Assembly: GCA_003135055.1 (NCBI GenBank)
Contig: PLDF01000473.1
Coordinates: 1,246 to 65,245 of the forward strand
Length of the DNA stretch: 64,000 bases
Direction of reading: 5' to 3'
Source: Bryobacterales bacterium
GTDB lineage: Bacteria; Acidobacteriota; Terriglobia; Bryobacterales; Bryobacteraceae
The notes under the pieces were generated by a model, which saw only the letters and a list, made by a program, of their open reading frames with translations, was not told the DNA's origin and ran no database searches. Position 1 is the stretch's first letter, and each line of letters starts with the position of its first letter. Of the stretch, positions 1 through 14,826 are shown in pieces. A program made the position numbers and the translations under genes.

Positions 1-609
1 CTGCGGTTTTCGCGGGATTCCGTGCGTGACTGGAACAACGGTCTAACGAACGTAGTGAAGCCAGTAATCGAGAAGCGTTTCGCAGTGATCGAGCGGAGCA
101 AGGCAACCACCCTCGGCTTCAAGAGAGTAGAGAAACCGGCTGTAGCTCCTCCCACACACCTACCAGTTGAGCCTCGGCTGCCCCGCCAAACAGCAAAGCT
201 CGACGTGTTCCTCTCACACGCCTCGGAGGACAAAGACGCCATCGCGCGGCCGCTTTATCAGGCGCTCATCGAGGCGGGTTTAACCGTCTGGTTCGACGAA
301 GCCGCCCTGCGCTTGGGGGATAGTTTGCGGCGGAAGATCGATGAAGGCTTAGCACGCTGCAACTACGGCGTTGTCATCATTAGTCCTAATTTCCTTGATC
401 TTGATAAGGAATGGCCACAACGAGAACTTGACGGCCTTGCGGCTCGTGAAATCGCTGGTGGCAAGACGATGATTCTGCCGGTCTGGCACGACATCGCTCA
501 TGCGGCAATCGCCCAGAAATCACCTACACTTGCTGACCGCGTTGCTGCGAAATCAACCGAAGGAATTCCGGCGCTCGTCGCCAAGATAATCCAGGTGGTC
601 CGCCAATAG
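1..609 (+). CDS. TIR domain protein (5' end may lie upstream of window; first in-frame start GTG at 22)
   Basis: ORF 22..609, with the frame open back to base 1. The C-terminal ~135 aa fit the bacterial TIR_2 pattern: DVFLSHASEDKD, GVVIISPNF, WPQRELDG, ILPVWH. Confidence 0.8.
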   Translation: MRFSRDSVRDWNNGLTNVVKPVIEKRFAVIERSKATTLGFKRVEKPAVAPPTHLPVEPRLPRQTAKLDVFLSHASEDKDAIARPLYQALIEAGLTVWFDEAALRLGDSLRRKIDEGLARCNYGVVIISPNFLDLDKEWPQRELDGLAAREIAGGKTMILPVWHDIAHAAIAQKSPTLADRVAAKSTEGIPALVAKIIQVVRQ

Positions 610-793
610 CGAACGTGAACCCTCGGATCAACTATAGCCGTAAAATACCCAGTGGGCGGCATCTCCCGAAGGGGACTTCTTGCCCGCGCTTCGGGAATCT
701 TGGCAGTTTCCGAGTAGCGTTTTCCGCCCGCAATCGACACGATCAGCGGCAGCCATCGAGTAGTAATATGTGATTCGTGGAATACGGGGGCGT

Positions 794-1810
794 TTACGCC
801 GCCGGATTGTTGAAGAATGGCGGTGCCGGCGGATGATAGGCTAGCATCAGGCCGTCAACCAGCGCATTTCCGCTGACACGGATCTTGACCTGGGTGATGG
901 CGGCCTGTGCTGTGCTCCGCTTGACGTACTTCGCCGTAGCGCCTGAAACAACCAGCATGGCGTCGTAAGCAACAAGCGCTTGGTCCTTGCTCACGAGCCG
1001 GGAGTGGTAGCGTACGTCTGGCTTGCACTGTATCGCCGAAATCAGCGAGGGGTCGAGCAGCGGTAATCCAAGTGCATATGCGCACGCGCACAGTTCATCG
1101 AGACGATGGATCTTGCCGTGGCTACCACCCTTCTCGAGAATGTAGCTCTTGAAGACCTTTTCTGCTACCTGCAATGAAGCCCAGTTGGACTGCCCGTAAT
1201 TCGGTGTCCGCAAGAGTAGGCATTCGGCTGCTTCCCGGAGATCGTCGAGCGCTTCTTTCATGTATGGCGCGTCACCGCCGCCTTGTCGCTCTGCCAATGC
1301 CCCCTCCATCGCCGAGAAAGATTGAAACATCCGGTGATATCGGGTCAGAATCGCGCCGCACTCGGTCGGAGATAACCGCCCTGCCAGTTCGGGAGTGAGT
1401 CCCTCGATGCTGTCATCGAGAAGGTTTATGATCGTTCGCTCTGGCCCATCCGTCCCGCGGTGTTGGATCTTCCGGCCCAGCATCTCGACGGAACAAATCG
1501 CGTACATGGCACCGTAGAACCGGAAGCAGCGAATTCGGTACGTGTCGCTGCGGATCGACACAAACGACTTGCCAAAATCTAGATCCACGTTCAGGCGATC
1601 GCCGTAGATCGCTTTGAACCAGTCGATGATGCGGCCCGCCACCGGGTCTCCGAGCGCCACGCTGATGTGAAAGCGCTGGCAGAACTTCGTCCAGCCCCGA
1701 ATCTCGCGGCCAACAATCCTGTCGTTCTCCCTCCGCAGTTCGGCGTCGATCTCGGTCATGACCGCATCGAATTCCTTGTCCGGAAGGTTCCACGCATCGA
1801 ATGGACCCAT
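794..1810 (-). CDS. hypothetical protein with C-terminal HEPN-like domain
   Basis: 338-aa ORF. The C-terminal ~110 aa follow the classical HEPN helix pattern (QVAEKVFKSYILEKGG..HGKIHRLDELCACAYALG ... DVRYHSRLVSKDQALVAYDAMLVV). The N-terminal two thirds are unrecognised. Domain call by eye only. Confidence 0.55.
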   Translation of the reverse strand: MGPFDAWNLPDKEFDAVMTEIDAELRRENDRIVGREIRGWTKFCQRFHISVALGDPVAGRIIDWFKAIYGDRLNVDLDFGKSFVSIRSDTYRIRCFRFYGAMYAICSVEMLGRKIQHRGTDGPERTIINLLDDSIEGLTPELAGRLSPTECGAILTRYHRMFQSFSAMEGALAERQGGGDAPYMKEALDDLREAAECLLLRTPNYGQSNWASLQVAEKVFKSYILEKGGSHGKIHRLDELCACAYALGLPLLDPSLISAIQCKPDVRYHSRLVSKDQALVAYDAMLVVSGATAKYVKRSTAQAAITQVKIRVSGNALVDGLMLAYHPPAPPFFNNPAA

Positions 1811-2130
1811 GTAATCATCTTCCCATCAGCCGCACGCTAGTAAGTCCTCTTCCGGTCGCCCCAGTGGCCTTTCTCCGCGGCCTGCCAGCTAGGACCGCTC
1901 GCGTGATTCCCCACGCCGATTGTGAGCGGCCTGTCGACAAAGAGGAAATTGAGATCGCGCGAATCTTTCCGGTCAACTTCTTGTTTGCGCGTCATCCGCA
2001 TCCTCAAATAGGTGGCCACTCGACCACCGCGGCAGGGCAGTGCGTTATGTTAGTTGTAGCGGATTAAAAATATGGGTCTGGATGGAGTTACCGTAGCGCG
2101 GACGTTTGCTCCTCGCAAGGTCCTTTTCCG

Positions 2131-2685
2131 ATGAGTCTTGACAACATTAAAGATCTGAGCCCTGACGTCCTAATGCTCTATCGCTATTTCGCATACGCCG
2201 CTTACATGCGAGGCAGGTTTCAGCGTGAGACTGATCCGGAATGGCTCAAGATGCTTGTGGTAGACGAATCCGGTCTTCTGATGTTCTTCTTATCGCCTCC
2301 AGGCATCTTCTTTACGTATTCGTACGCAGGAATTTACCTCGTTATCGAAGGATGGCGCCACCTCGGCCTCAAGGATCAAAGAATCGACGAGCTTCTTCAA
2401 TCGCCCTTCGTAGACCGGCTGCGGCTCTTTCGTAATGCTACTTTCCATTACCAAAAGGACTTGTTTTTTAGCTGGAAACACCTTCAGTTCTTCGGCACGG
2501 AAGAGGAGCGTACCGAGAAATGGGTCAACCAGGTTTATGACGAGTTCGAGAGGTTTTTCGCCGAAAACACTCTTCCGGTACCCGACGTGCTCCGCGGCGA
2601 ATTAAAGGGTCAGACTCATGTCGAGATTGCCAAGGCAGTCCAGAGGTTTTGGGCTGATAGAGCAGAACGTCGGTCTGACGATTAA
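2131..2685 (+). CDS. hypothetical protein carrying an R-N-x-x-x-H (HEPN-type) motif
   Basis: 184-aa ORF divergent from 794..1810. It contains LRLFRNATFHYQKD, matching the Rx4-6H HEPN RNase signature. No other family recognised. Confidence 0.55.
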   Translation: MSLDNIKDLSPDVLMLYRYFAYAAYMRGRFQRETDPEWLKMLVVDESGLLMFFLSPPGIFFTYSYAGIYLVIEGWRHLGLKDQRIDELLQSPFVDRLRLFRNATFHYQKDLFFSWKHLQFFGTEEERTEKWVNQVYDEFERFFAENTLPVPDVLRGELKGQTHVEIAKAVQRFWADRAERRSDD

Positions 2686-3083
2686 GTGTTGGTGAGGCGC
2701 AGTCCGCCTCGCGCGAGGTTCGAATCCTACTCCTACCCCGTTACGATCCCACGAGCGCGGTCTGGCCGCGAGCAAGAACCTACGGGAACGCGGGTTCCTG
2801 TTGTCGGCTCGGACGAGCCTGGGCGATTCGCGATAGCCGAAGCGTGAGAGGACTTCTGGGCGGATCGCCGGCCACTCGTACAGAGCTCGGATTGATCCCG
2901 CCGCGGCTGTAATCCGTTAGCTGGCCCCAAACCGTGTTCTGGGAAGCGTACTGGCTCAGCGTACCGCTGAGCCAGGCGGCGAAACCGTCTCGTGCGAAGG
3001 GTAAACCTTCCCAGGCTGTCAGCGCTTCTCGCTGGCGCGCTCCGCAGCGTTAGACGGCCAGAGAATCCGGAAACCGGCACTGA

Positions 3084-3356
3084 CTATGAACGGGCCCACA
3101 CCCGGTCTGCCGCCGGAGCGCCGCGTAAGAGACCCGCCGTACTTAGGTCCTCGTCAATCTCCGGCCAATGGATGCCGTAACCCGCGGCGCTGACCTGCCA
3201 GTTTTGGCGCTGCTCCGAACTCGCGTCGAGGAGTCTCGGGTACCAAACCAGTGGCACCACGATAGTGCGCCCGTCGATAAGGTCGACAGACAGAGTGTCC
3301 TCTGTAAAGCTAACCTTCTTCACGCGCTCTCCAGGCCTAATTTCCGAACCTTGCAT
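3084..3356 (-). CDS. DUF2442 family protein
   Basis: 90 aa. VSFTEDTLSVDLIDGRTIVVPLVWYPRLLDAS..QRQNWQV...GYGIHWPEIDEDLS is the typical DUF2442 pattern. It overlaps the upstream DUF4160 gene by 20 nt. Confidence 0.8.
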   Translation of the reverse strand: MQGSEIRPGERVKKVSFTEDTLSVDLIDGRTIVVPLVWYPRLLDASSEQRQNWQVSAAGYGIHWPEIDEDLSTAGLLRGAPAADRVWARS

Positions 3357-3573
3357 TCCATTTCTCCATCAGATCGTTTTCGTTTTCCCTGAGCATCTGT
3401 TGTATGCGCCGAAGCTCCACCGGGCTGAATCCTAAATTAAGAGCCAAGCCAACCGGCCTCAACCAGAATTTCGCGGACTGATCGTCGCGATCCACGTGAA
3501 CATGAGGAGGCTCGTTTGGCTCATGGCTGAAAAAGTATACCCGGTACGGACCCGATCGCAATACCGTCGGCAC
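3337..3573 (-). CDS. DUF4160 family protein
   Basis: YRVYFFSHEPNEPPHVHVDRDDQSAKFWLRP is the DUF4160 signature. The ORF extends to 3612, but GTG at 3573 (VPTVLRSGPYRVYFF) matches the usual family N-terminus. Confidence 0.75.
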   Translation of the reverse strand: MPTVLRSGPYRVYFFSHEPNEPPHVHVDRDDQSAKFWLRPVGLALNLGFSPVELRRIQQMLRENENDLMEKWNARFGN

Positions 3574-3886
3574 GGTCCCAGTATCGCACCATCGTGAATG
3601 CTGAGTGCTCAACTCGGCGAAAGTCTGACAGTAGCCCCAATCCGGGAAAGGACGCTCGGCCGGCTAGCTGTCCCGAAATCTCGTTCCCGCCAGCGAAAAC
3701 CCAAGAAGGCCCGGCTCCGGAGTTAGCGACCGGAACAACGGAGATCAGGCCCAAGGCCCCGCAACCGGACCTTGGCAGAGGGCCTCATCTTAACGCATAT
3801 GCCCAGACGACCGGGGCCCTATCCTCGCTTGGCGGGGAACATCCCGCCGCCGGGACTCCGTCTCGACTGCGTGGTTTGCGGTGCGG

Positions 3887-4216
3887 TCATTCTAACCGGC
3901 CTTTCCCGAAAACGCGTCGGCGCCCAGCCACCGCGGGCGGGTCTTTGCCGCGACGCCGAGATCGAACAGCCAAACCTCGCCGCGGGCGTGCTGCATTCTC
4001 GTCCTGGTCTAATGAAGCCGAAGAGCGCCTTGGCCGCCTTTCCAATCTCCTCGTCCGCAAGGGTCCGGAATCAAACGGCAGCTCCCGAGTCCGCCTCAGG
4101 ATTTCCACGGCGAAGGTCTGCTTGTCGTCAGCCGGAAGAGAGTCAAGGGCTTCCAGGAGATCAAGCGGCTGCTTGCTCGTGTATTCACGCGACCTTAATT
4201 CAGAGCGCGGCTGCAA
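3887..4216 (-). pseudogene. decayed antitoxin plus MazF/PemK-like toxin N-terminal remnant
   Basis: The 109-aa ORF starts like a small antitoxin (LLEALDSLPADDKQTFAVEILRR). Alternative frames read PLADEEIGKAAKALF and then GEVWLFDLGVAAKTRP, a MazF/PemK-type N-terminus, before ending. At least two frame changes are needed. Confidence 0.3.
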
Positions 4217-4336
4217 ATGCTACCGAGTGCTTAAACGTTTTCGGGATTCCTCGCTCGGCCGCGAAATCCCGCTCCCTCACGGTCGCGGCTCCGTAACTAA
4301 ACTATCTTGAGTTGAGACACTGTGAAACAATCGGTT

Positions 4337-4425
4337 GGCAGGCGAAAGCGCCTGCCCCACGGCTGAAAAAGCCAAATTCAAGAGAGCCGGCTGAAAGCCG
4401 GCTGCAGCCAGGATTGGCTGCCCCA
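4337..4425 (-). repeat. cluster of three hairpins, two of them REP-like with GTGGGGCA heads; probable terminator region of the ABC-F gene
   Basis: On the minus strand: GTGGGGCAGCCA-ATCC-TGGCTGC (4404..4425), AGCCGGC-TTTCA-GCCGGCT (4385..4403) and GTGGGGCAGGCG-CTTT-CGCCTGCC (4337..4360). They lie directly after the stop at 4426. Confidence 0.55.
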
Positions 4426-6216
4426 CTAACTCTGCTTCTCTTCTAACTCCGCCCAGCGGGCATAGAGCGTTGCTACTTCCGCCTCGGCCGCTTGTAACCG
4501 CTCGTAGCAGTCGTGCAACCTCACTCCGTCCGACACCACCTCAGGCGCCTGCATCTCTGCGCGGATCGCTTCCAGCGAGTGTTCGCCTTCGAGAATCCGC
4601 GGCTCCATCCGCTCCCACTCGCGCGCTTCCAGATACGACAGCTTCTTCTTACCCGCCGCTGCTGTCTTGGGCACGGCGGGCTTGTCCGTCTTCGGCTGCT
4701 TCGGCGCGGTCTGCGCCTGTTCCCACTGCCAGTAGTCGGCGAAGATTTGCGCGCCGCCTTGCCCGTCGAGACCCAGGACGGCGGTGGAAACGCGGTCCAG
4801 CATGAAACGGTCGTGCGTTACCAGCACCAGCGCGCCGGGGAAATCGGCGAGGCTCTCTTCGAGTACCTCAAGCGTCGTGATATCCAGGTCGTTGGTCGGC
4901 TCGTCGAGCAACAGAACGTCGGCGGGCTGCAGCATCAGGCGGGCGATCAGGACGCGCGCCTGCTCGCCGCCGGAGAGGCTCGATATGGGGCGGTCGAGCT
5001 GGCCAGCGTCGAAGAGGAATCGCTTGGCCCATCCGGCCACGTGGATGGGTTGGCCGCGAAAAATCACGTGGTCGCCGTGTCCTCCCAGGCCTTCGCGAAG
5101 AGTTTGCGTGGGGTCCAAATGCTCGCGGGCTTGATCGAAATAGACGATGCGCGGGGCGTCGGCGAGCTCCACGCGGCCGGAATCGGGCTGCGCTTCGCCG
5201 GCGAGGATGCGCAGCAGCGTGGTCTTGCCGGTTCCGTTCAGACCCAGCAGACCCAGGCGCACGCCGGGCGAGAGCGTGAAGTTGAGATCGCGGAAAAGCG
5301 CGCGGCCGCCCAGCGATTTGGCGACGCCTTCCACGGAAATCAGGCGCTTGGTGCGGCGTTCGGTGGCGGTGAAGTCGATGCGCGCGACGCCCTTGGCGGT
5401 GCGGCGTTCCAGGTCGGAAAGCTCGTCGATCAAGCGGCCGGCTTCATCGGTGCGGGCGCGCGATTTGCCGGTACGCGCCTTGGCGCCGCGCCGCAGCCAT
5501 TCCACCTCGCGGCGGACAATGTTGGCGAGCGATTCCTGGCGGCTGGTTTGCGCCAGCAGGAACTCCTCTTTCTTCTCCAGGAACTGGGTGTAACTGCCGG
5601 GCACGCGGAAGATGCCTTCGGGATAGGCGCGGTCGATCTCGGCCATCCCGCTCACCACGTTGTCGAGAAAGTAGCGGTCGTGGCTCACCACCACGCTGGC
5701 GAACGGCGCGTTGATGAGCAGTTTTTCCAGCCACAGGATGCCTTCGATATCCAGATGGTTGGTGGGCTCGTCGAGAAACAGCACGTCGGGGTTGGCCGCC
5801 AACTCGCGCGCGATGGCGAGGCGGCGCAGCCAGCCGCCGGAGAGCGAATCGGTGCGGACATCGCCGTTCGAGAATCCCGCGCGGCCCAGCGTGAGGTTGA
5901 TGCGGGAAGCGCGCTCGGCGTCTTCCATGCGCTCGCCGGCGATGGCATCGGTGACGATTTCGGTTGCGGTCTTGCCCTCGGGGAACTCGGCCTGTTGCGG
6001 CACGTAGCCCACGCGCGTGTTGCGGCGCAGAGATACGGAGCCTTCATCGGAATCGAGCCGGCCCGCGAGAATCTTGAGCAGCGTCGATTTGCCGGCGCCG
6101 TTGGGGCCGATCAGGCCCAGCCGCTCGCCTTCGGAAATGCCGAGCGCGATGCCGCTGAATAGAACCCGCGAGCCGAAGCTCTTGGAAAGGCCGGTGCAGC
6201 TTTCAAGCAGCGCCAT
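4426..6216 (-). CDS. uup: ABC-F family ATPase, Uup-like (two ABC domains plus C-terminal coiled coil)
   Basis: 596 aa with two Walker A motifs (GPNGAGKST, GLNGTGKTT) and two signatures (LSGGWLRRLAIAREL, LSGGEQARVLIARL). No TM domain. The C-terminal KKKLSYLEAREWERME...coiled coil resembles E. coli Uup. Confidence 0.9.
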   Translation of the reverse strand: MALLESCTGLSKSFGSRVLFSGIALGISEGERLGLIGPNGAGKSTLLKILAGRLDSDEGSVSLRRNTRVGYVPQQAEFPEGKTATEIVTDAIAGERMEDAERASRINLTLGRAGFSNGDVRTDSLSGGWLRRLAIARELAANPDVLFLDEPTNHLDIEGILWLEKLLINAPFASVVVSHDRYFLDNVVSGMAEIDRAYPEGIFRVPGSYTQFLEKKEEFLLAQTSRQESLANIVRREVEWLRRGAKARTGKSRARTDEAGRLIDELSDLERRTAKGVARIDFTATERRTKRLISVEGVAKSLGGRALFRDLNFTLSPGVRLGLLGLNGTGKTTLLRILAGEAQPDSGRVELADAPRIVYFDQAREHLDPTQTLREGLGGHGDHVIFRGQPIHVAGWAKRFLFDAGQLDRPISSLSGGEQARVLIARLMLQPADVLLLDEPTNDLDITTLEVLEESLADFPGALVLVTHDRFMLDRVSTAVLGLDGQGGAQIFADYWQWEQAQTAPKQPKTDKPAVPKTAAAGKKKLSYLEAREWERMEPRILEGEHSLEAIRAEMQAPEVVSDGVRLHDCYERLQAAEAEVATLYARWAELEEKQS

Positions 6217-13068: not shown

Positions 13069-13356
13069 ATGCCGAACACCGAAACGCGTAGCGAGAAACT
13101 CGACCTTCGGCTGACGCCGTCGGCGAAACGCACGCTCCAAGCCGCCGCGCGCGCCGCGCGCCGCTCCGTCAGCGAATTCGTTCTGGAGAGCGCCCTCGCT
13201 CGCGCCGAGGAAACCCTGCCGGATCGCCAGCGCTTCGGGTTAAGCGCCGAACAATGGGAGGCATTCCAGGCGGCGCTTTCGGCTCGGCCCCGCGCGGCGC
13301 CGCGGCTGGCCAGGCTTCTCAAGAAGCCGAGCGTGTTCGAGAGCGGCAGCGTCTAA
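13069..13356 (+). CDS. DUF1778 (TacA-like) antitoxin
   Basis: 95 aa. KLDLRLTPSAKRTLQAAARAARRSVSEFVLESAL is the DUF1778 RHH signature. It lies directly upstream of a GNAT gene. Confidence 0.85.
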   Translation: MPNTETRSEKLDLRLTPSAKRTLQAAARAARRSVSEFVLESALARAEETLPDRQRFGLSAEQWEAFQAALSARPRAAPRLARLLKKPSVFESGSV

Positions 13357-13857
13357 GTGGCCACGCTCCGGATCGAAAAGCTGCAACGCGGCCACGGCGT
13401 CGATACGTTCGACCGCGGCCAGGAGGCTCTCAACCGCTTCCCGATACGATTCGCGTTTCAGAGCCAGCAGGCCGGCGCCTCACAAACCTACATCGCCCTG
13501 GCGGATGAAGAGGTCGCCGGCTACTACACGCTTGTCGCCGGCCAAGTCGAGTATAGCGACGCGCCCGAGCGCCCGACCAAAGGCCTTGCCCGCCATCCCG
13601 TGCCGATCATGCTTCTGGCTCGCCTCGCAATTGCGAAGTCATGGCAAGGCAAAGGCTTGGGCAGCGGCCTCCTCAAAGACGCCATGCTTCGCACGTTGCA
13701 GGCCGCGGACATCGCCGGCATTCGGGCGTTTGGGGTCCACGCAAAGGACGACGCGGCCAGATCTTTCTACGAACGCTTCGACTTTGCCGCGTCGCCGAGC
13801 GACCCGTACCATCTATTCCGGTTGCTAAAGGACATCCGGGCCGCTTTGAAATCGTAA
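13357..13857 (+). CDS. GNAT-family acetyltransferase toxin (TacT-like)
   Basis: 166 aa with a GTG start one base after the antitoxin stop. LARLAIAKSWQGKGLGSGLL is the acetyl-CoA binding motif, and the N-terminus (FDRGQEALNRF) is typical of TacT-type toxins. Confidence 0.85.
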   Translation: MATLRIEKLQRGHGVDTFDRGQEALNRFPIRFAFQSQQAGASQTYIALADEEVAGYYTLVAGQVEYSDAPERPTKGLARHPVPIMLLARLAIAKSWQGKGLGSGLLKDAMLRTLQAADIAGIRAFGVHAKDDAARSFYERFDFAASPSDPYHLFRLLKDIRAALKS

Positions 13858-14002: not shown

Positions 14003-14377
14003 ATGGCAATTCCGAAAGGGGAACAAAGAGAGGCGCCGGCCAGCTACCGCGGCAAGCAGGCCAAAACCGGCAACTCGCTGGGACTGCGCTTCGATAAAGC
14101 GCTCTTCAAGAGTCATCCGGAGTTCTCCGGCGAGGTGCGCGCTCATGTAATCGCGCCGGGACGCATGCTCGTGGTGGCCGAGCCGGCGACGAAATCGCGG
14201 CGGCACAGGGCCGATCCGGTAATGGAGGCGTTTCTGAGTTTCCTGGCGGACGACATGGCCCGGTCCCCAAAGCAAATTAAACCGCTGGATCGGGGATTGG
14301 TCAAGCGCATCAAAGCGCTGGTAGGCCATCTGCCCGTGAATCCGGATGAAGACCTGGGTGATCAGCCAATCCTATAA
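14003..14377 (+). CDS. prlF: PrlF/SohA-family antitoxin (AbrB/SpoVT fold)
   Basis: 124 aa. The C-terminal DPVMEAFLSFLADDMARSPKQIKPLD...VNPDEDL matches PrlF. Its stop overlaps the YhaV-like start (ATAATG). Confidence 0.8.
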   Translation: MAIPKGEQREAPASYRGKQAKTGNSLGLRFDKALFKSHPEFSGEVRAHVIAPGRMLVVAEPATKSRRHRADPVMEAFLSFLADDMARSPKQIKPLDRGLVKRIKALVGHLPVNPDEDLGDQPIL

Positions 14378-14826
14378 TGGAATCCCGAGGCTGGCGCCTT
14401 TTCGTTCACCCGCTGTTCCCCGCGCAACTGGAGAAGTTGGCGAGACAAGTCGAAAAACTGGCTTCCCGCGACCCGGAGGGATACGCGTCGCACCCCGCGG
14501 CGAAGACGCTGGCGGCCATCGTTTATTACATCGAAGAAGCCATCCCCCGCGATCCGAATAGCCCCGAGTTTCGTCAGGGGAACACACTGGGACCCGGCAA
14601 TCGCCATTGGTTCCGGGCGAAGTTTCACGGCCGGTATCGACTGTTCTATCGCTTCTCGAACGAGCAGAAGGCGATCGTCTATGCGTGGGCTAACGACGAG
14701 AAAAGCTTGCGCAAAGCCGGCTCGAAGACTGACCCTTATACCGTGTTTCAGGCCATGCTGGATAGCGGCGACGCGCCCAATTCTTTTGCCGATCTCTTAC
14801 GAAGATCGAAGGGGATGGAACGTTGA
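14377..14826 (+). CDS. yhaV: YhaV-family toxin (ribonuclease)
   Basis: 149 aa. GWRLFVHPLF..QLEKL, FRQGNTLG..NRHWFRAKF..RYRLFYRF....KAIVYAWANDE is the YhaV pattern. Confidence 0.85.
   Translation: MESRGWRLFVHPLFPAQLEKLARQVEKLASRDPEGYASHPAAKTLAAIVYYIEEAIPRDPNSPEFRQGNTLGPGNRHWFRAKFHGRYRLFYRFSNEQKAIVYAWANDEKSLRKAGSKTDPYTVFQAMLDSGDAPNSFADLLRRSKGMER

What the first reader, a model, noticed from the sequence alone, without database searches (positions are those of the whole stretch)
1..2685. TIR protein flanked by two HEPN-motif proteins: candidate defence / abortive-infection cluster at the window edge
Three neighbouring genes (+,-,+) carry defence-type domains. The first is a TIR_2-type protein with the W-x-x-R-E-L glutamate context (WPQRELDG) seen in NAD-cleaving bacterial TIRs. 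The second is a 338-aa protein whose C-terminus follows the classical HEPN helix pattern. The third is a 184-aa protein with FRNATFHY, the R-N-x-x-x-H signature of HEPN RNases. TIR and HEPN modules are effectors or sensors in many antiphage systems (Thoeris, Abi systems, CRISPR-associated RNases). I do not recognise this trio as a named system. A DUF4160/DUF2442 pair and a decayed MazF-like remnant follow, so the context looks island-like. The TIR ORF is open to base 1, so its N-terminal domain and any upstream partners cannot be seen here.
Basis: partly seen in the sequence, partly recalled or inferred. Interest (0 to 1): 0.7.

Follow-up and report, generated by a model that had tools for sequence, protein, structure and literature searches.

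The report
Three unlinked defence-type genes, not a system
The three genes are real (a TIR NAD-cleaving-type protein, a HEPN-domain protein and a small protein with a HEPN-like RNase motif), but their relatives elsewhere are never found together, so this looks like an ordinary patch of independently acquired defence or toxin genes rather than a new three-gene immune system.

Summary
The domain calls largely hold. Gene 1 (window 1-609, +) is the last 202 residues of a 372-aa protein. Its TIR domain is very close to AbTir/TcpB/PdTIR (E ~1e-52), with the catalytic Glu, the cyclisation Trp and the BB loop conserved. Its N-terminal domain matches the untested PADLOC candidate PDC-S54. Gene 2 (794-1810, -) has a true HEPN domain of the PF05168 type: all 25 relatives hit the Pfam model and the top four Foldseek hits are HEPN structures. 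It is the AF0298-like variant, with no canonical Rx4-6H. Gene 3 (2131-2685, +) belongs to a large unannotated family (about 1,300 clusters at 50% identity). R-N-x3-H is invariant among 41 close relatives and sits at the end of a helix, but no profile or fold search reaches significance.

No locus outside this organism's own contigs combines two of the families: 79 loci of gene 2, about 45 of gene 3 and 5 contexts of gene 1. The genes lie on alternating strands and differ in GC. No conserved partner gene was found for gene 2 or gene 3.

Best reading: an islet of independent mobile defence or toxin genes, next to a DhiTA-like pair. One lead remains: close relatives of gene 3 lie near unrelated TIR genes more often than expected.

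The parts
1..609 (+). 3' part (residues 171-372 plus stop) of a 372-aa TIR protein. The full gene is L001 7361-8479. Its N-terminal domain (residues 29-225) lies mostly outside the window.
   Evidence: Open from base 1. The full gene was recovered on identical contigs. PADLOC PDC-S54 matches residues 29-225 (E 8e-24) and PDC-S66 matches residues 231-369 (E 1e-52).
181..597 (+). TIR domain (residues 231-369), AbTir/TcpB/PdTIR type
   Evidence: Pfam TIR_2 above its cut-off. The family profile matches PDB 7uwg, 8g83, 7uxr, 4lqc and 3h16 at E 1e-45 to 1e-52.
412..426 (+). W308-P-Q-R-E312: the alpha-C tryptophan (cyclisation) and the catalytic glutamate (codon 424-426)
   Evidence: Invariant in 32 relatives. 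Aligned with AbTir W204 and E208; E208A is inactive and W204A loses cyclisation.
794..1810 (-). Gene B: 338-aa protein made of an unknown N-terminal alpha/beta domain (1-175), a HEPN domain and a C-terminal beta-hairpin region (302-326)
   Evidence: ORF. 33 close relatives and 110 confirmed metagenome loci. AlphaFold model with pLDDT 85.
932..1261 (-). HEPN domain of B (residues ~184-293), PF05168 / AF0298-like variant. It has E217-x3-K221, invariant H235 (codon 1106-1108) and R267-Y268 (R codon 1010-1012), with no His after the Arg.
   Evidence: The variant is described in PMC3710099.
2131..2685 (+). Gene C: 184-aa all-helical protein of a large unannotated family; probable HEPN-type RNase
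   Evidence: ORF. 116 relatives. 1,309 cluster representatives at E<=1e-3. Model pLDDT 86. GC 0.497, below every 555-nt stretch of the window.
2431..2448 (+). R101-N-A-T-F-H106 motif of C. The conserved E73 is at 2347-2349.
   Evidence: R101, N102 and H106 are invariant in 41 relatives. E73, R101 and H106 are kept in at least 90% of 145 representatives. The motif lies at the end of helix 93-105 and the start of the following loop.
3337..3612 (-). DUF4160 protein (DhiT-type toxin). The true start is probably the GTG near 3573. It overlaps the next gene by 20 nt.
   Evidence: Pfam E 3.6e-20. NCBIfam toxin_DhiT weak, E 5.5e-4. Not called by the public gene callers.
3084..3356 (-). DUF2442 protein (DhiA-type antitoxin)
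   Evidence: Pfam E 9.4e-24. The DUF4160/DUF2442 pair is dhiTA of Dickeya (PMC8198452).

Best explanation
The region is a small variable islet in the chromosome of an uncultured soil or peat bacterium, probably Acidobacteriota of the family Bryobacteraceae. It lies between TauD/MFS genes and ABC-F/MacB genes. Independently acquired, self-contained defence- or toxin-type genes have accumulated there. They are not parts of one machine.

(1) TIR protein, 372 aa. This is a single-gene candidate defence protein. The N-terminal ~225-residue domain is shared with PADLOC candidate PDC-S54 and is inferred to act as a sensor or assembly module. The C-terminal AbTir-type TIR domain would, on assembly, cleave NAD+ and probably make a cyclic ADPR isomer. 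That would deplete NAD+ or signal. The conserved catalytic residues are shown here; the activity and the trigger are inferred.

(2) Gene B. This is a solitary two-domain protein. Its HEPN domain is the PF05168 / AF0298-like variant that uses an Arg plus an upstream His. It is inferred to be an RNase or RNA-binding toxin-like effector, controlled by its own conserved N-terminal domain rather than by an MNT antitoxin.

(3) Gene C. This is a solitary small helical protein with an invariant Glu...R-N-x3-H constellation. It is inferred to be a metal-independent HEPN-type RNase that acts alone, like single-gene Abi proteins.

(4) A DhiTA-type toxin-antitoxin pair lies next to them.
For: Independence of the three genes:
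- 79 non-identical B loci (53 with at least 1 kb on the side where C would lie, 42 on the TIR side) contain no C-family gene and no TIR of the window's family.
- 40 C loci from GTDB genomes (about 35 with at least 1 kb on each side) contain no B and no TIR.
- 5 distinct contexts of the TIR family (84%, 82%, 68%, 52% and 51% identity) contain neither B nor C.
- Clustering of neighbours found no shared partner for B or C, including small co-directional ORFs.
- The strands alternate (+,-,+). GC differs: TIR 0.562, B 0.582, C 0.497, against a window mean of 0.611 with sd 0.033.
- The three families show no profile-profile similarity to one another.

Mobile or defence character:
- TIR relatives sit next to HicAB, Gp49/HTH, integrases, GmrSD+FRG and PIN/FitA.
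- B relatives sit next to ApeA-HEPN plus type IV secretion genes, Mrr, FRG, NACHT, Type ISP and a TIR-STAND protein.
- C relatives sit next to a HEPN/MNT pair, as integron cassettes in Vibrio, and beside the integrase of a viral contig.

Domains:
- TIR.
- B HEPN.
- C motif and helix position.
- Weak hits of a few C relatives to three HEPN-clan Pfam families (HEPN_Cthe2314, Ribonuc_2-5A, pEK499_p136).
- Five of the 50 top, individually non-significant, Foldseek hits for C are HEPN proteins (1ylm, 7ae9_A, 7ae9_B, 7ae8_A, 8xeh_D).
Against: - Many metagenome contigs are short, so absence of a partner is only informative for roughly half of the B loci.
- No context of a relative more than 84% identical, other than this organism's own contigs, was long enough to test. 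A very young, lineage-specific association therefore cannot be excluded.
- Close relatives of C (79% and 73% identity) lie near TIR-domain genes twice more, once in an operon-like arrangement. Pure independence does not predict this.
- No function was measured for any gene.
- C has no significant profile or fold match to HEPN.
- One B relative (71% identity) sits among ordinary housekeeping genes.
Confidence: 0.65

Rival explanations
1. The three genes form one lineage-specific defence system. The TIR protein senses infection and makes a nucleotide signal, and one or both HEPN-type proteins are RNase effectors switched on by it. This would be analogous to Thoeris or to type III CRISPR Csm6.
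For: - Tight physical clustering within 2.7 kb.
- The TIR domain keeps the residues needed to make cyclic ADPR.
- TIR-domain genes also occur near two close C relatives and near two or three B relatives.
Against: - No co-occurrence of the families in any locus other than the organism's own contigs.
- The genes are on alternating strands and differ in GC.
- Close TIR-family relatives (84%, 82% and 68% identity) function in contexts without B or C.
- B and C show no recognisable ligand-sensing domain such as CARF, SAVED, SLOG or Macro.
- The TIR genes found near other B or C relatives have unrelated architectures.
Confidence: 0.05
2. Only gene C is functionally tied to TIR proteins. A conserved small HEPN-like effector would work with interchangeable TIR sensors, as ThsA does with variable ThsB. 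Gene B would be an unrelated insertion between the two.
For: - Three of about ten contexts of the full-length C subfamily have a TIR-domain gene within 2 kb: the window, the P0036 contig, and L134/L135.
- In L134 the TIR gene ends 73 nt upstream of the C homologue on the same strand.
- The same TIR profile finds no TIR gene in 487 kb around distant C relatives, and none in the rest of the 64-kb window.
- Excluding the window, 2 hits in about 27 kb compare with roughly 0.08 expected. This is my own rough Poisson estimate, giving P of about 0.003, made post hoc on few cases.
Against: - Only one of the three cases is operon-like. In the P0036 contig three genes, including a glyoxalase, separate them, and they are on opposite strands.
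- 0 of 40 GTDB loci, L145 and L146 lack any TIR gene.
- Five contexts of the window's TIR family lack C.
- C has no evident ligand-binding module.
- Shared residence in defence islands explains the enrichment equally well.
Confidence: 0.1
3. Genes B and/or C are not defence or toxin genes at all. B would be a non-catalytic HEPN RNA- or nucleotide-binding regulator. C's R-N-x3-H would belong to a different, non-HEPN helical fold with an unrelated role.
For: - B lacks the canonical His of Rx4-6H, and one relative lies among housekeeping genes.
- C has no significant match to any HEPN profile or structure.
- Neighbours of distant C relatives are mostly ordinary genes.
- No antitoxin-like partner was found for either gene.
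Against: - B keeps every residue of the AF0298-type alternative site (E-x3-K, His in the helix 2-3 insert, Arg).
- In C the invariant polar constellation, the motif's position at the end of a helix and the conserved Glu in the preceding long helix fit the published HEPN description.
- The only recurrent weak Pfam and PDB hits for C are HEPN families.
- Both genes show a mobile distribution: integron cassettes, prophage, conjugative element.
Confidence: 0.2

Closest known systems
AbTir / TcpB (BtpA) / PdTIR / BtTir bacterial TIR NADases
   Same: The TIR domain aligns over about 135 residues at E 1e-45 to 1e-52. The catalytic Glu, the alpha-C Trp needed for ADPR cyclisation and the BB-loop G-D-S-L are all kept.
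   Different: Those proteins carry an N-terminal coiled coil and are about 270 aa. This one has a different N-terminal domain of about 225 residues, shared with PADLOC PDC-S54. The host is a soil bacterium, so a virulence role is unlikely.
Thoeris (ThsB TIR plus ThsA effector)
   Same: The PADLOC ThsB profile matches the TIR domain (E 8e-33). The chemistry is predicted to be the same.
   Different: There is no ThsA-type gene (SIR2/SLOG or Macro) among the genes called in the 20-kb stretch around it. NCBIfam Thoeris models score far below their cut-offs.
PADLOC phage defence candidates PDC-S66 and PDC-S54 (untested single-gene candidates found by 'guilt by embedding')
   Same: PDC-S66 matches the TIR half and PDC-S54 matches the N-terminal half. 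Relatives behave as stand-alone genes in variable contexts.
   Different: Neither profile matches end to end: PDC-S66 positions 143-279 of 282, PDC-S54 positions 18-215 of 410. The protein is therefore a domain recombinant of the two. The candidates themselves are unvalidated.
HEPN-T family (Pfam PF05168), AF0298-like subgroup; HEPN toxins of HEPN-MNT pairs
   Same: Gene B has the fold (1ufb, 1o3u, 1wol, 2hsb), the E-x3-K motif, and the Arg plus an upstream conserved His in place of Rx4-6H.
   Different: There is no MNT partner in the window, and none among the 25 neighbour Pfam families that one search lists for about 75 relatives (107 matched in all). B has an extra conserved 175-residue N-terminal domain and a C-terminal beta-hairpin. 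It is 338 aa against about 120-140 aa.
Single-gene HEPN abortive-infection and defence proteins (AbiU2, AbiV, AbiD/F, AbiJ; HEC-08)
   Same: Gene C is a solitary small helical protein with R-[polar]-x3-H and is carried on mobile elements. In HEC-08, mutating the motif's His abolishes defence.
   Different: No detectable sequence or fold match to any of these families. No phenotype is known.
KEN-domain RNases (Ire1, RNase L; Pfam Ribonuc_2-5A)
   Same: Two relatives in each of two alignments give sub-threshold hits (E 0.018-0.08). From my own knowledge, these probably come through the shared R-N-x3-H-Y stretch.
   Different: The hits are not significant. The architecture differs completely (no kinase domain), and the hosts are bacteria.
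DhiTA type II toxin-antitoxin (DUF4160/DUF2442)
   Same: The same domain pair, with the toxin gene first and overlapping genes.
   Different: The NCBIfam DhiT score is far below its cut-off (20.5 against 100 bits). The pair is untested. It is not part of the trio.

Membership tests
Bacterial TIR NADase (AbTir/TcpB type) | TIR_2 domain scoring above Pfam's curated cut-off | tested here: met
   69.7 bits against a cut-off of 28; 68 bits on the full-length protein.
Bacterial TIR NADase (AbTir/TcpB type) | Catalytic glutamate at the AbTir E208 position | tested here: met
   E312 is invariant in 32 relatives. It aligns to the E of AbTir 'WTNYEL'. E208A is inactive.
Bacterial TIR NADase (AbTir/TcpB type) | Aromatic residue at the AbTir W204 position and an intact BB loop (G-D-S-L) | tested here: met
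   W308, G276, D277 and L279 are invariant. S278 is kept in at least 90%. Their roles are given.
Bacterial TIR NADase (AbTir/TcpB type) | NAD+ cleavage activity | not testable with these tools
   Needs an enzyme assay.
Thoeris | A ThsA-type effector gene next to the TIR (ThsB) gene | tested here: not met
   Precomputed Pfam hits for all genes called in the 20-kb stretch around the TIR gene (about 7.4 kb upstream, 12 kb downstream) show no SIR2, SLOG or Macro domain.
PADLOC PDC-S66 / PDC-S54 | End-to-end match to the candidate's profile | tested here: not met
   PDC-S66 matches only profile positions 143-279 of 282. PDC-S54 matches only 18-215 of 410.
HEPN superfamily (gene B) | Helical-bundle fold matching solved HEPN domains | tested here: met
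   The top four Foldseek PDB hits are 1ufb, 1o3u, 1wol and 2hsb, with probability 0.96-1.0 and target TM 0.53-0.65. Their E-values are only 0.08-0.5.
HEPN superfamily (gene B) | Match to Pfam PF05168 | tested here: inconclusive
   The window protein scores 20 bits against a cut-off of 22. All 25 relatives match at E<=1, best 5.8e-9.
HEPN superfamily (gene B) | Canonical Rx4-6H motif | tested here: not met
   R267 is followed by Y-(D/H)-S-x-L-V with no conserved His at +5 to +7. B fits the published AF0298-type exception instead: invariant H235 upstream plus E217-x3-K221.
HEPN-MNT toxin-antitoxin | An adjacent minimal nucleotidyltransferase gene | tested here: not met
   None in the window. No nucleotidyltransferase family appears among the 25 neighbour Pfam families that one search lists (107 matched in all, so a single occurrence could be hidden). 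No conserved partner was found by clustering.
HEPN superfamily (gene C) | Rx4-6H with a polar residue after the Arg | tested here: met
   R101-N102-x3-H106 is invariant in 41 relatives. R and H are kept in at least 90% of 145 representatives.
HEPN superfamily (gene C) | [quoted passage not shown] | tested here: met
   In the model the helix spans 93-105 and a loop follows at 106-114. E73 lies in helix 56-77. The criterion comes from PMC3710099. This rests on a predicted structure.
HEPN superfamily (gene C) | Significant profile or fold similarity to a known HEPN family | tested here: not met
   No Pfam, NCBIfam, PADLOC or PHROG hit. PDB sequence profiles give no HEPN hit. Best Foldseek HEPN hit has probability 0.30. 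Only scattered sub-threshold Pfam HEPN hits appear in 6 of 145 relatives.
Proposed TIR + HEPN + HEPN three-gene system | Conserved co-location of the three families in other genomes | tested here: not met
   Profile searches of 146 loci found no locus outside the organism's own contigs with B+C, B plus the TIR N-domain, or C plus the TIR N-domain.
Proposed TIR + HEPN + HEPN three-gene system | Operon-like organisation | tested here: not met
   Strands are +,-,+. TIR and B converge; B and C diverge across 320 nt.
DhiTA toxin-antitoxin | DUF4160 gene followed by an overlapping DUF2442 gene | tested here: met
   Pfam hits and a 20-nt overlap on the minus strand. Domain pair as.

The most novel reading that the evidence does not exclude
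Gene C represents a large, so far unannotated family of small solitary HEPN-type RNases. The family has about 1,300 clusters at 50% identity and no Pfam, NCBIfam, PADLOC or PHROG model. It travels on integron cassettes, prophages and defence islands.

In its acidobacterial subfamily it may act as the effector for interchangeable TIR-domain sensors, in a Thoeris-like arrangement with a HEPN effector. Three of about ten contexts have a TIR gene within 2 kb, one of them operon-like.

The probability given is for the TIR-coupled version. The weaker claim, that this is a new HEPN-type single-gene toxin or defence family, I put at about 0.35.
Probability: 0.1. Interest if true: 0.65.

Novelty: new member of a known kind. 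Interest (0 to 1): 0.3.

Why it matters
As proposed, a new TIR-plus-two-HEPN immune system would have been notable, but the evidence does not support it. What is left is more modest.

- **TIR protein.** It shows that the N-terminal module of one untested PADLOC candidate (PDC-S54) is combined with the AbTir-type TIR of another (PDC-S66). This is the sensor-effector shuffling typical of defence proteins, and the protein is a clean candidate for a single-gene NADase defence assay.
- **Gene C.** It flags a widespread family that no annotation library covers. The family has an invariant RNase-type motif and a mobile lifestyle, and would merit a family definition and a toxicity or defence test.
- **Gene B.** It extends the AF0298-like HEPN variant to a conserved two-domain architecture with no MNT partner.

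Tried and rejected
- **tRNA remnant.** A GGTTCGAATCC string near 2730 looked like a tRNA T-arm remnant, which could mark an island attachment site. ARAGORN and Rfam, including an E<=1 scan of 1-4500, find nothing.
- **MazF-like remnant.** Pfam finds nothing in any stop-free segment of the two spacers.
- **Small ORFs between B and C.** These are the 54-60 aa ORF on the minus strand at 1837-2019 and the 88-aa ORF on the plus strand at 1801-2067. Neither is conserved next to relatives of B or C, and the two tested have no Pfam hit (88-aa ORF; 54-aa gene call).
- **Shared domains.** hhalign of B against C, B against TIR and C against TIR gave nothing.
- **Phage and viral libraries.** C is absent from the phage collection. 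It has no BFVD fold match. B and C have no PHROG hit. Plasmids give only distant hits on Ralstonia megaplasmids.
- **Strain variants.** I looked up the neighbouring ABC-F protein to find strains with a different islet. Only the same arrangement came back.
- **Promoter and terminator scan of 1-4500.** Counts were no higher than in shuffled sequence.
- **The 245-aa gene upstream of the TIR gene (L001 6159-6896).** No family hit in Pfam, PADLOC or PHROGs.


Full report
**What is there**

The first 2.7 kb of the window holds three ORFs on alternating strands: 1-609 (+), 794-1810 (-) and 2131-2685 (+). The first is open to base 1.

The window's first 12 kb are 100% identical to four public metagenome contigs. 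Two of them extend 7.9 kb further left, which recovers the complete first gene (372 aa; L001 7361-8479) and its upstream neighbours. These are a 245-aa protein with no family hit, then TauD, MFS and MacB-type genes. Downstream of the three genes lie a DUF4160/DUF2442 pair (3337-3612 and 3084-3356, both -), an ABC-F ATPase (4426-6216, -) and two MacB-type permease genes. Names attached to relatives point to Bryobacteraceae, Acidobacteriota.

**Gene 1, the TIR protein**

- Pfam TIR_2 scores 69.7 bits against a cut-off of 28.
- A profile of 32 relatives matches the solved TIR domains of AbTir (7uwg, 8g83), BtTir (7uxr), TcpB/BtpA (4lqc, 4lzp, 4c7m) and PdTIR (3h16) at E 1e-45 to 1e-52.
- W308, E312 and the BB-loop G276, D277 and L279 are invariant in the family.
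- In AbTir, E208A is inactive, W204A loses 2'cADPR formation and the BB loop is needed for activity.

The catalytic-Glu criterion is therefore met, and a cyclic ADPR product is a reasonable inference.

The full protein is modular. Residues 231-369 match PADLOC PDC-S66 (E 1e-52, profile positions 143-279 of 282). Residues 29-225 match PDC-S54 (E 8e-24, positions 18-215 of 410). Neither matches end to end. [quoted passage not shown] No ThsA-like gene lies in the 20-kb stretch around the gene.

**Gene 2 (B)**

The window protein alone is just below Pfam's HEPN cut-off (20 against 22 bits, residues 184-248). However, all 25 aligned relatives hit PF05168, best E 5.8e-9. The AlphaFold model (pLDDT 85) has the HEPN proteins 1ufb, 1o3u, 1wol and 2hsb as its four best PDB matches, with probability 0.96-1.0.

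The invariant residues are E217, K218, K221, S222, H235, Q261, V266 and Y268, with R267 nearly invariant. There is no conserved His after R267. This is exactly the exception described for the AF0298-type HEPN-T family: the Arg is kept, the His is lost, a second conserved His lies in the helix 2-3 insert, and an E-x3-[KR] motif is present.

B also has a conserved N-terminal alpha/beta domain (residues 1-175; invariant R35, E36, W64, G70, R72, D76, G80) and a C-terminal beta-hairpin. Neither could be assigned. The two-domain architecture is kept in relatives down to about 27% identity.

**Gene 3 (C)**

No Pfam, NCBIfam, PADLOC or PHROG model matches C. The family is nevertheless large: 116 relatives in the word-indexed search and 1,309 cluster representatives at E<=1e-3 in the exhaustive search. 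Most are single-domain proteins of 135-190 aa.

- R101, N102, A103, F105 and H106 are invariant in 41 relatives.
- E73, G74, R101, H106 and W131 are kept in at least 90% of 145 diverse representatives whose mean column identity is 10%. The motif is therefore far more than chance.
- The model (pLDDT 86) is all-helical. The motif lies at the end of helix 93-105 and the start of the following loop, and E73 sits in the preceding long helix. That is where the HEPN literature places Rx4-6H and the conserved acidic residue.

Against this, no profile or fold search is significant. The only recurrent signals are sub-threshold:

- HEPN_Cthe2314 (3 relatives), Ribonuc_2-5A (2) and pEK499_p136 (1) among the 25 listed of 30 weakly hit Pfam families.
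- Five HEPN chains among the top 50 Foldseek hits.

I rate HEPN membership as probable (about 0.7-0.75) but unproven.

**Is it one system?**

This was tested from all three sides.

- *From B.* 80 metagenome loci were fetched, 79 of them not identical to the window. 53 have at least 1 kb on the side where C would lie and 42 on the TIR side. None has a C relative. None has the window's TIR family.
- *From C.* 40 loci came from one-genome-per-species GTDB contigs, about 35 with at least 1 kb on each side. None has B or any TIR gene. Five further contexts were also examined.
- *From the TIR protein.* Five distinct contexts at 84%, 82%, 68%, 52% and 51% identity were examined. They are HicAB/GAF; integrase + GmrSD + FRG; integrase/transposases + PIN-FitA; Gp49-HTH + LeuRS; and small unknown genes. 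None has B or C.

A final profile search with HMMs of all families over six-frame translations of all 146 loci found no locus, outside the organism's own contigs, that combines any two of them. Clustering of neighbours, including small co-directional ORFs, gave no conserved partner for B or C.

The genes also differ in composition. The TIR gene has GC 0.562, B 0.582 and C 0.497, which is lower than every 555-nt stretch of the 64-kb window (mean 0.611, sd 0.033).

**What the contexts do say**

All three families live in variable, mobile or defence-rich places.

- B relatives sit beside an ApeA-HEPN gene and type IV secretion genes. They also sit beside Mrr, FRG, NACHT, DUF6119, Type ISP and LA2681-HEPN genes and a 941-aa protein with an N-terminal TIR domain. 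One sits among housekeeping genes.
- C relatives sit beside a HEPN/MNT pair.
- In two Vibrio genomes C relatives are single-gene cassettes between attC-like repeats.
- In a viral contig a C relative lies directly after the integrase and near the terminase genes.
- A C relative at 73% identity lies 2.1 kb from a DUF4160/DUF2442 pair that is 71-74% identical to the window's.

**A lead that cuts the other way**

Two close C relatives have a TIR-domain gene nearby.

- P0036 (79% identity) has a 519-aa TIR_2 gene 2 kb away. It is on the opposite strand with three genes in between.
- P0044 (73% identity) has a 412-aa protein with an N-terminal TIR-like domain that ends 73 nt upstream on the same strand.

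The same broad TIR profile finds no TIR gene in 487 kb around distant C relatives, and none in the rest of the window. Excluding the window, 2 hits in about 27 kb compare with roughly 0.08 expected from the rate in the other loci. That is my own rough, post-hoc estimate.

The TIR proteins involved have three unrelated architectures, and only one case is operon-like. Shared residence in defence islands explains this as well as functional coupling does. I carry it as a rival at about 0.1.

**Mechanism, with shown and inferred steps marked**

- *Shown:* domain identities, conserved catalytic-type residues, lack of conserved partners, and mobile contexts.
- *Inferred for the TIR protein:* the N-terminal domain controls assembly, and the assembled TIR domains form composite active sites as in AbTir filaments. 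They then cleave NAD+, probably to a cyclic ADPR isomer, leading to NAD+ loss and growth arrest of the infected cell.
- *Inferred for B:* an RNase or RNA-binding HEPN domain using R267, H235 and E217, gated by its own N-terminal domain.
- *Inferred for C:* a metal-independent RNase using R101, N102 and H106 with E73, probably as a dimer as in other HEPN enzymes, acting as a single-gene toxin or Abi-like module. How it is kept silent is unknown.
- *Neighbouring pair:* the DUF4160/DUF2442 pair is a DhiTA-type toxin-antitoxin module.

**Verdict**

The interpretation as a three-gene system is not supported. The locus is best described as an ordinary accretion of independent defence- or toxin-type genes. 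Its components are new members of known kinds. The unannotated family of gene C is the one element worth a follow-up.

Noticed in passing
L024 219-850 (Vibrio sp. 10N.261.55.A7) and L038 3781-4472 (Vibrio atypicus): Distant members of gene C's family lie between repeats of about 95-120 nt (TAACAA...GCGTTAG) spaced 340-1500 nt apart. One is the L024 ORF 327-761, 144 aa, containing LFRNATFHYQK. The repeats look like chromosomal-integron attC sites, so these are single-gene integron cassettes.
   Followed up: partly
L134 4690-5928 and 6001-6570 (also L135): A 412-aa protein with an N-terminal TIR-like domain (SEWVRYEW; no Pfam hit on record) ends 73 nt upstream of a 73%-identical relative of gene C, on the same strand. 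A HEPN/MNT pair follows. A 79%-identical relative (P0036) also has a 519-aa TIR_2 gene 2 kb away.
   Followed up: partly
L146 6818-8552 (IMG/VR contig): A 55%-identical relative of gene C sits directly after a tyrosine-integrase-like gene and near terminase genes in a viral contig. A small gene that looks HicA-like by eye follows it. This is the usual place for prophage accessory or defence genes.
   Followed up: no
window 13069-13857 and 14003-14826: Two more toxin-antitoxin-like pairs lie on the plus strand. One is a TacA-type antitoxin (13069-13356) with a GNAT acetyltransferase (13357-13857). The other is a PrlF-type antitoxin (14003-14377) followed by a 149-aa ORF (14377-14826). The labels come from precomputed Pfam hits on the identical contig.
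   Followed up: no
window 3337-3612 (-): The public gene callers did not call the DUF4160 ORF on the identical contigs, although it matches the whole Pfam model (E 3.6e-20). Its real start is probably the GTG near 3573.
   Followed up: partly
L001 6159-6896 (-), just left of the window: A 245-aa protein with no family hit and a Pro/Ala-rich tail lies between the TIR gene and TauD. The region has a strong GC skew (about 0.3).
   Followed up: no
window 794-1810 (-), residues 1-175 of gene B: The unassigned N-terminal domain has its own invariant polar residues (R35, E36, W64, G70, R72, D76, G80, within YGDRLNxDxDFG). This suggests a binding or catalytic site of unknown nature.
   Followed up: no
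window 2131-2685: Gene C has the lowest GC of the whole window (0.497 against 0.611). The neighbouring DUF4160 gene is also low (0.522). Both are consistent with recent horizontal acquisition.
   Followed up: yes
L145 284-847 (+): A 187-aa ORF with no family hit on record overlaps the start of a 73%-identical relative of gene C by 20 nt on the same strand, an operon-like arrangement. It contains REAQNFFKHA, which is not a canonical Rx4-6H motif. No equivalent ORF is seen next to other C relatives.
   Followed up: no
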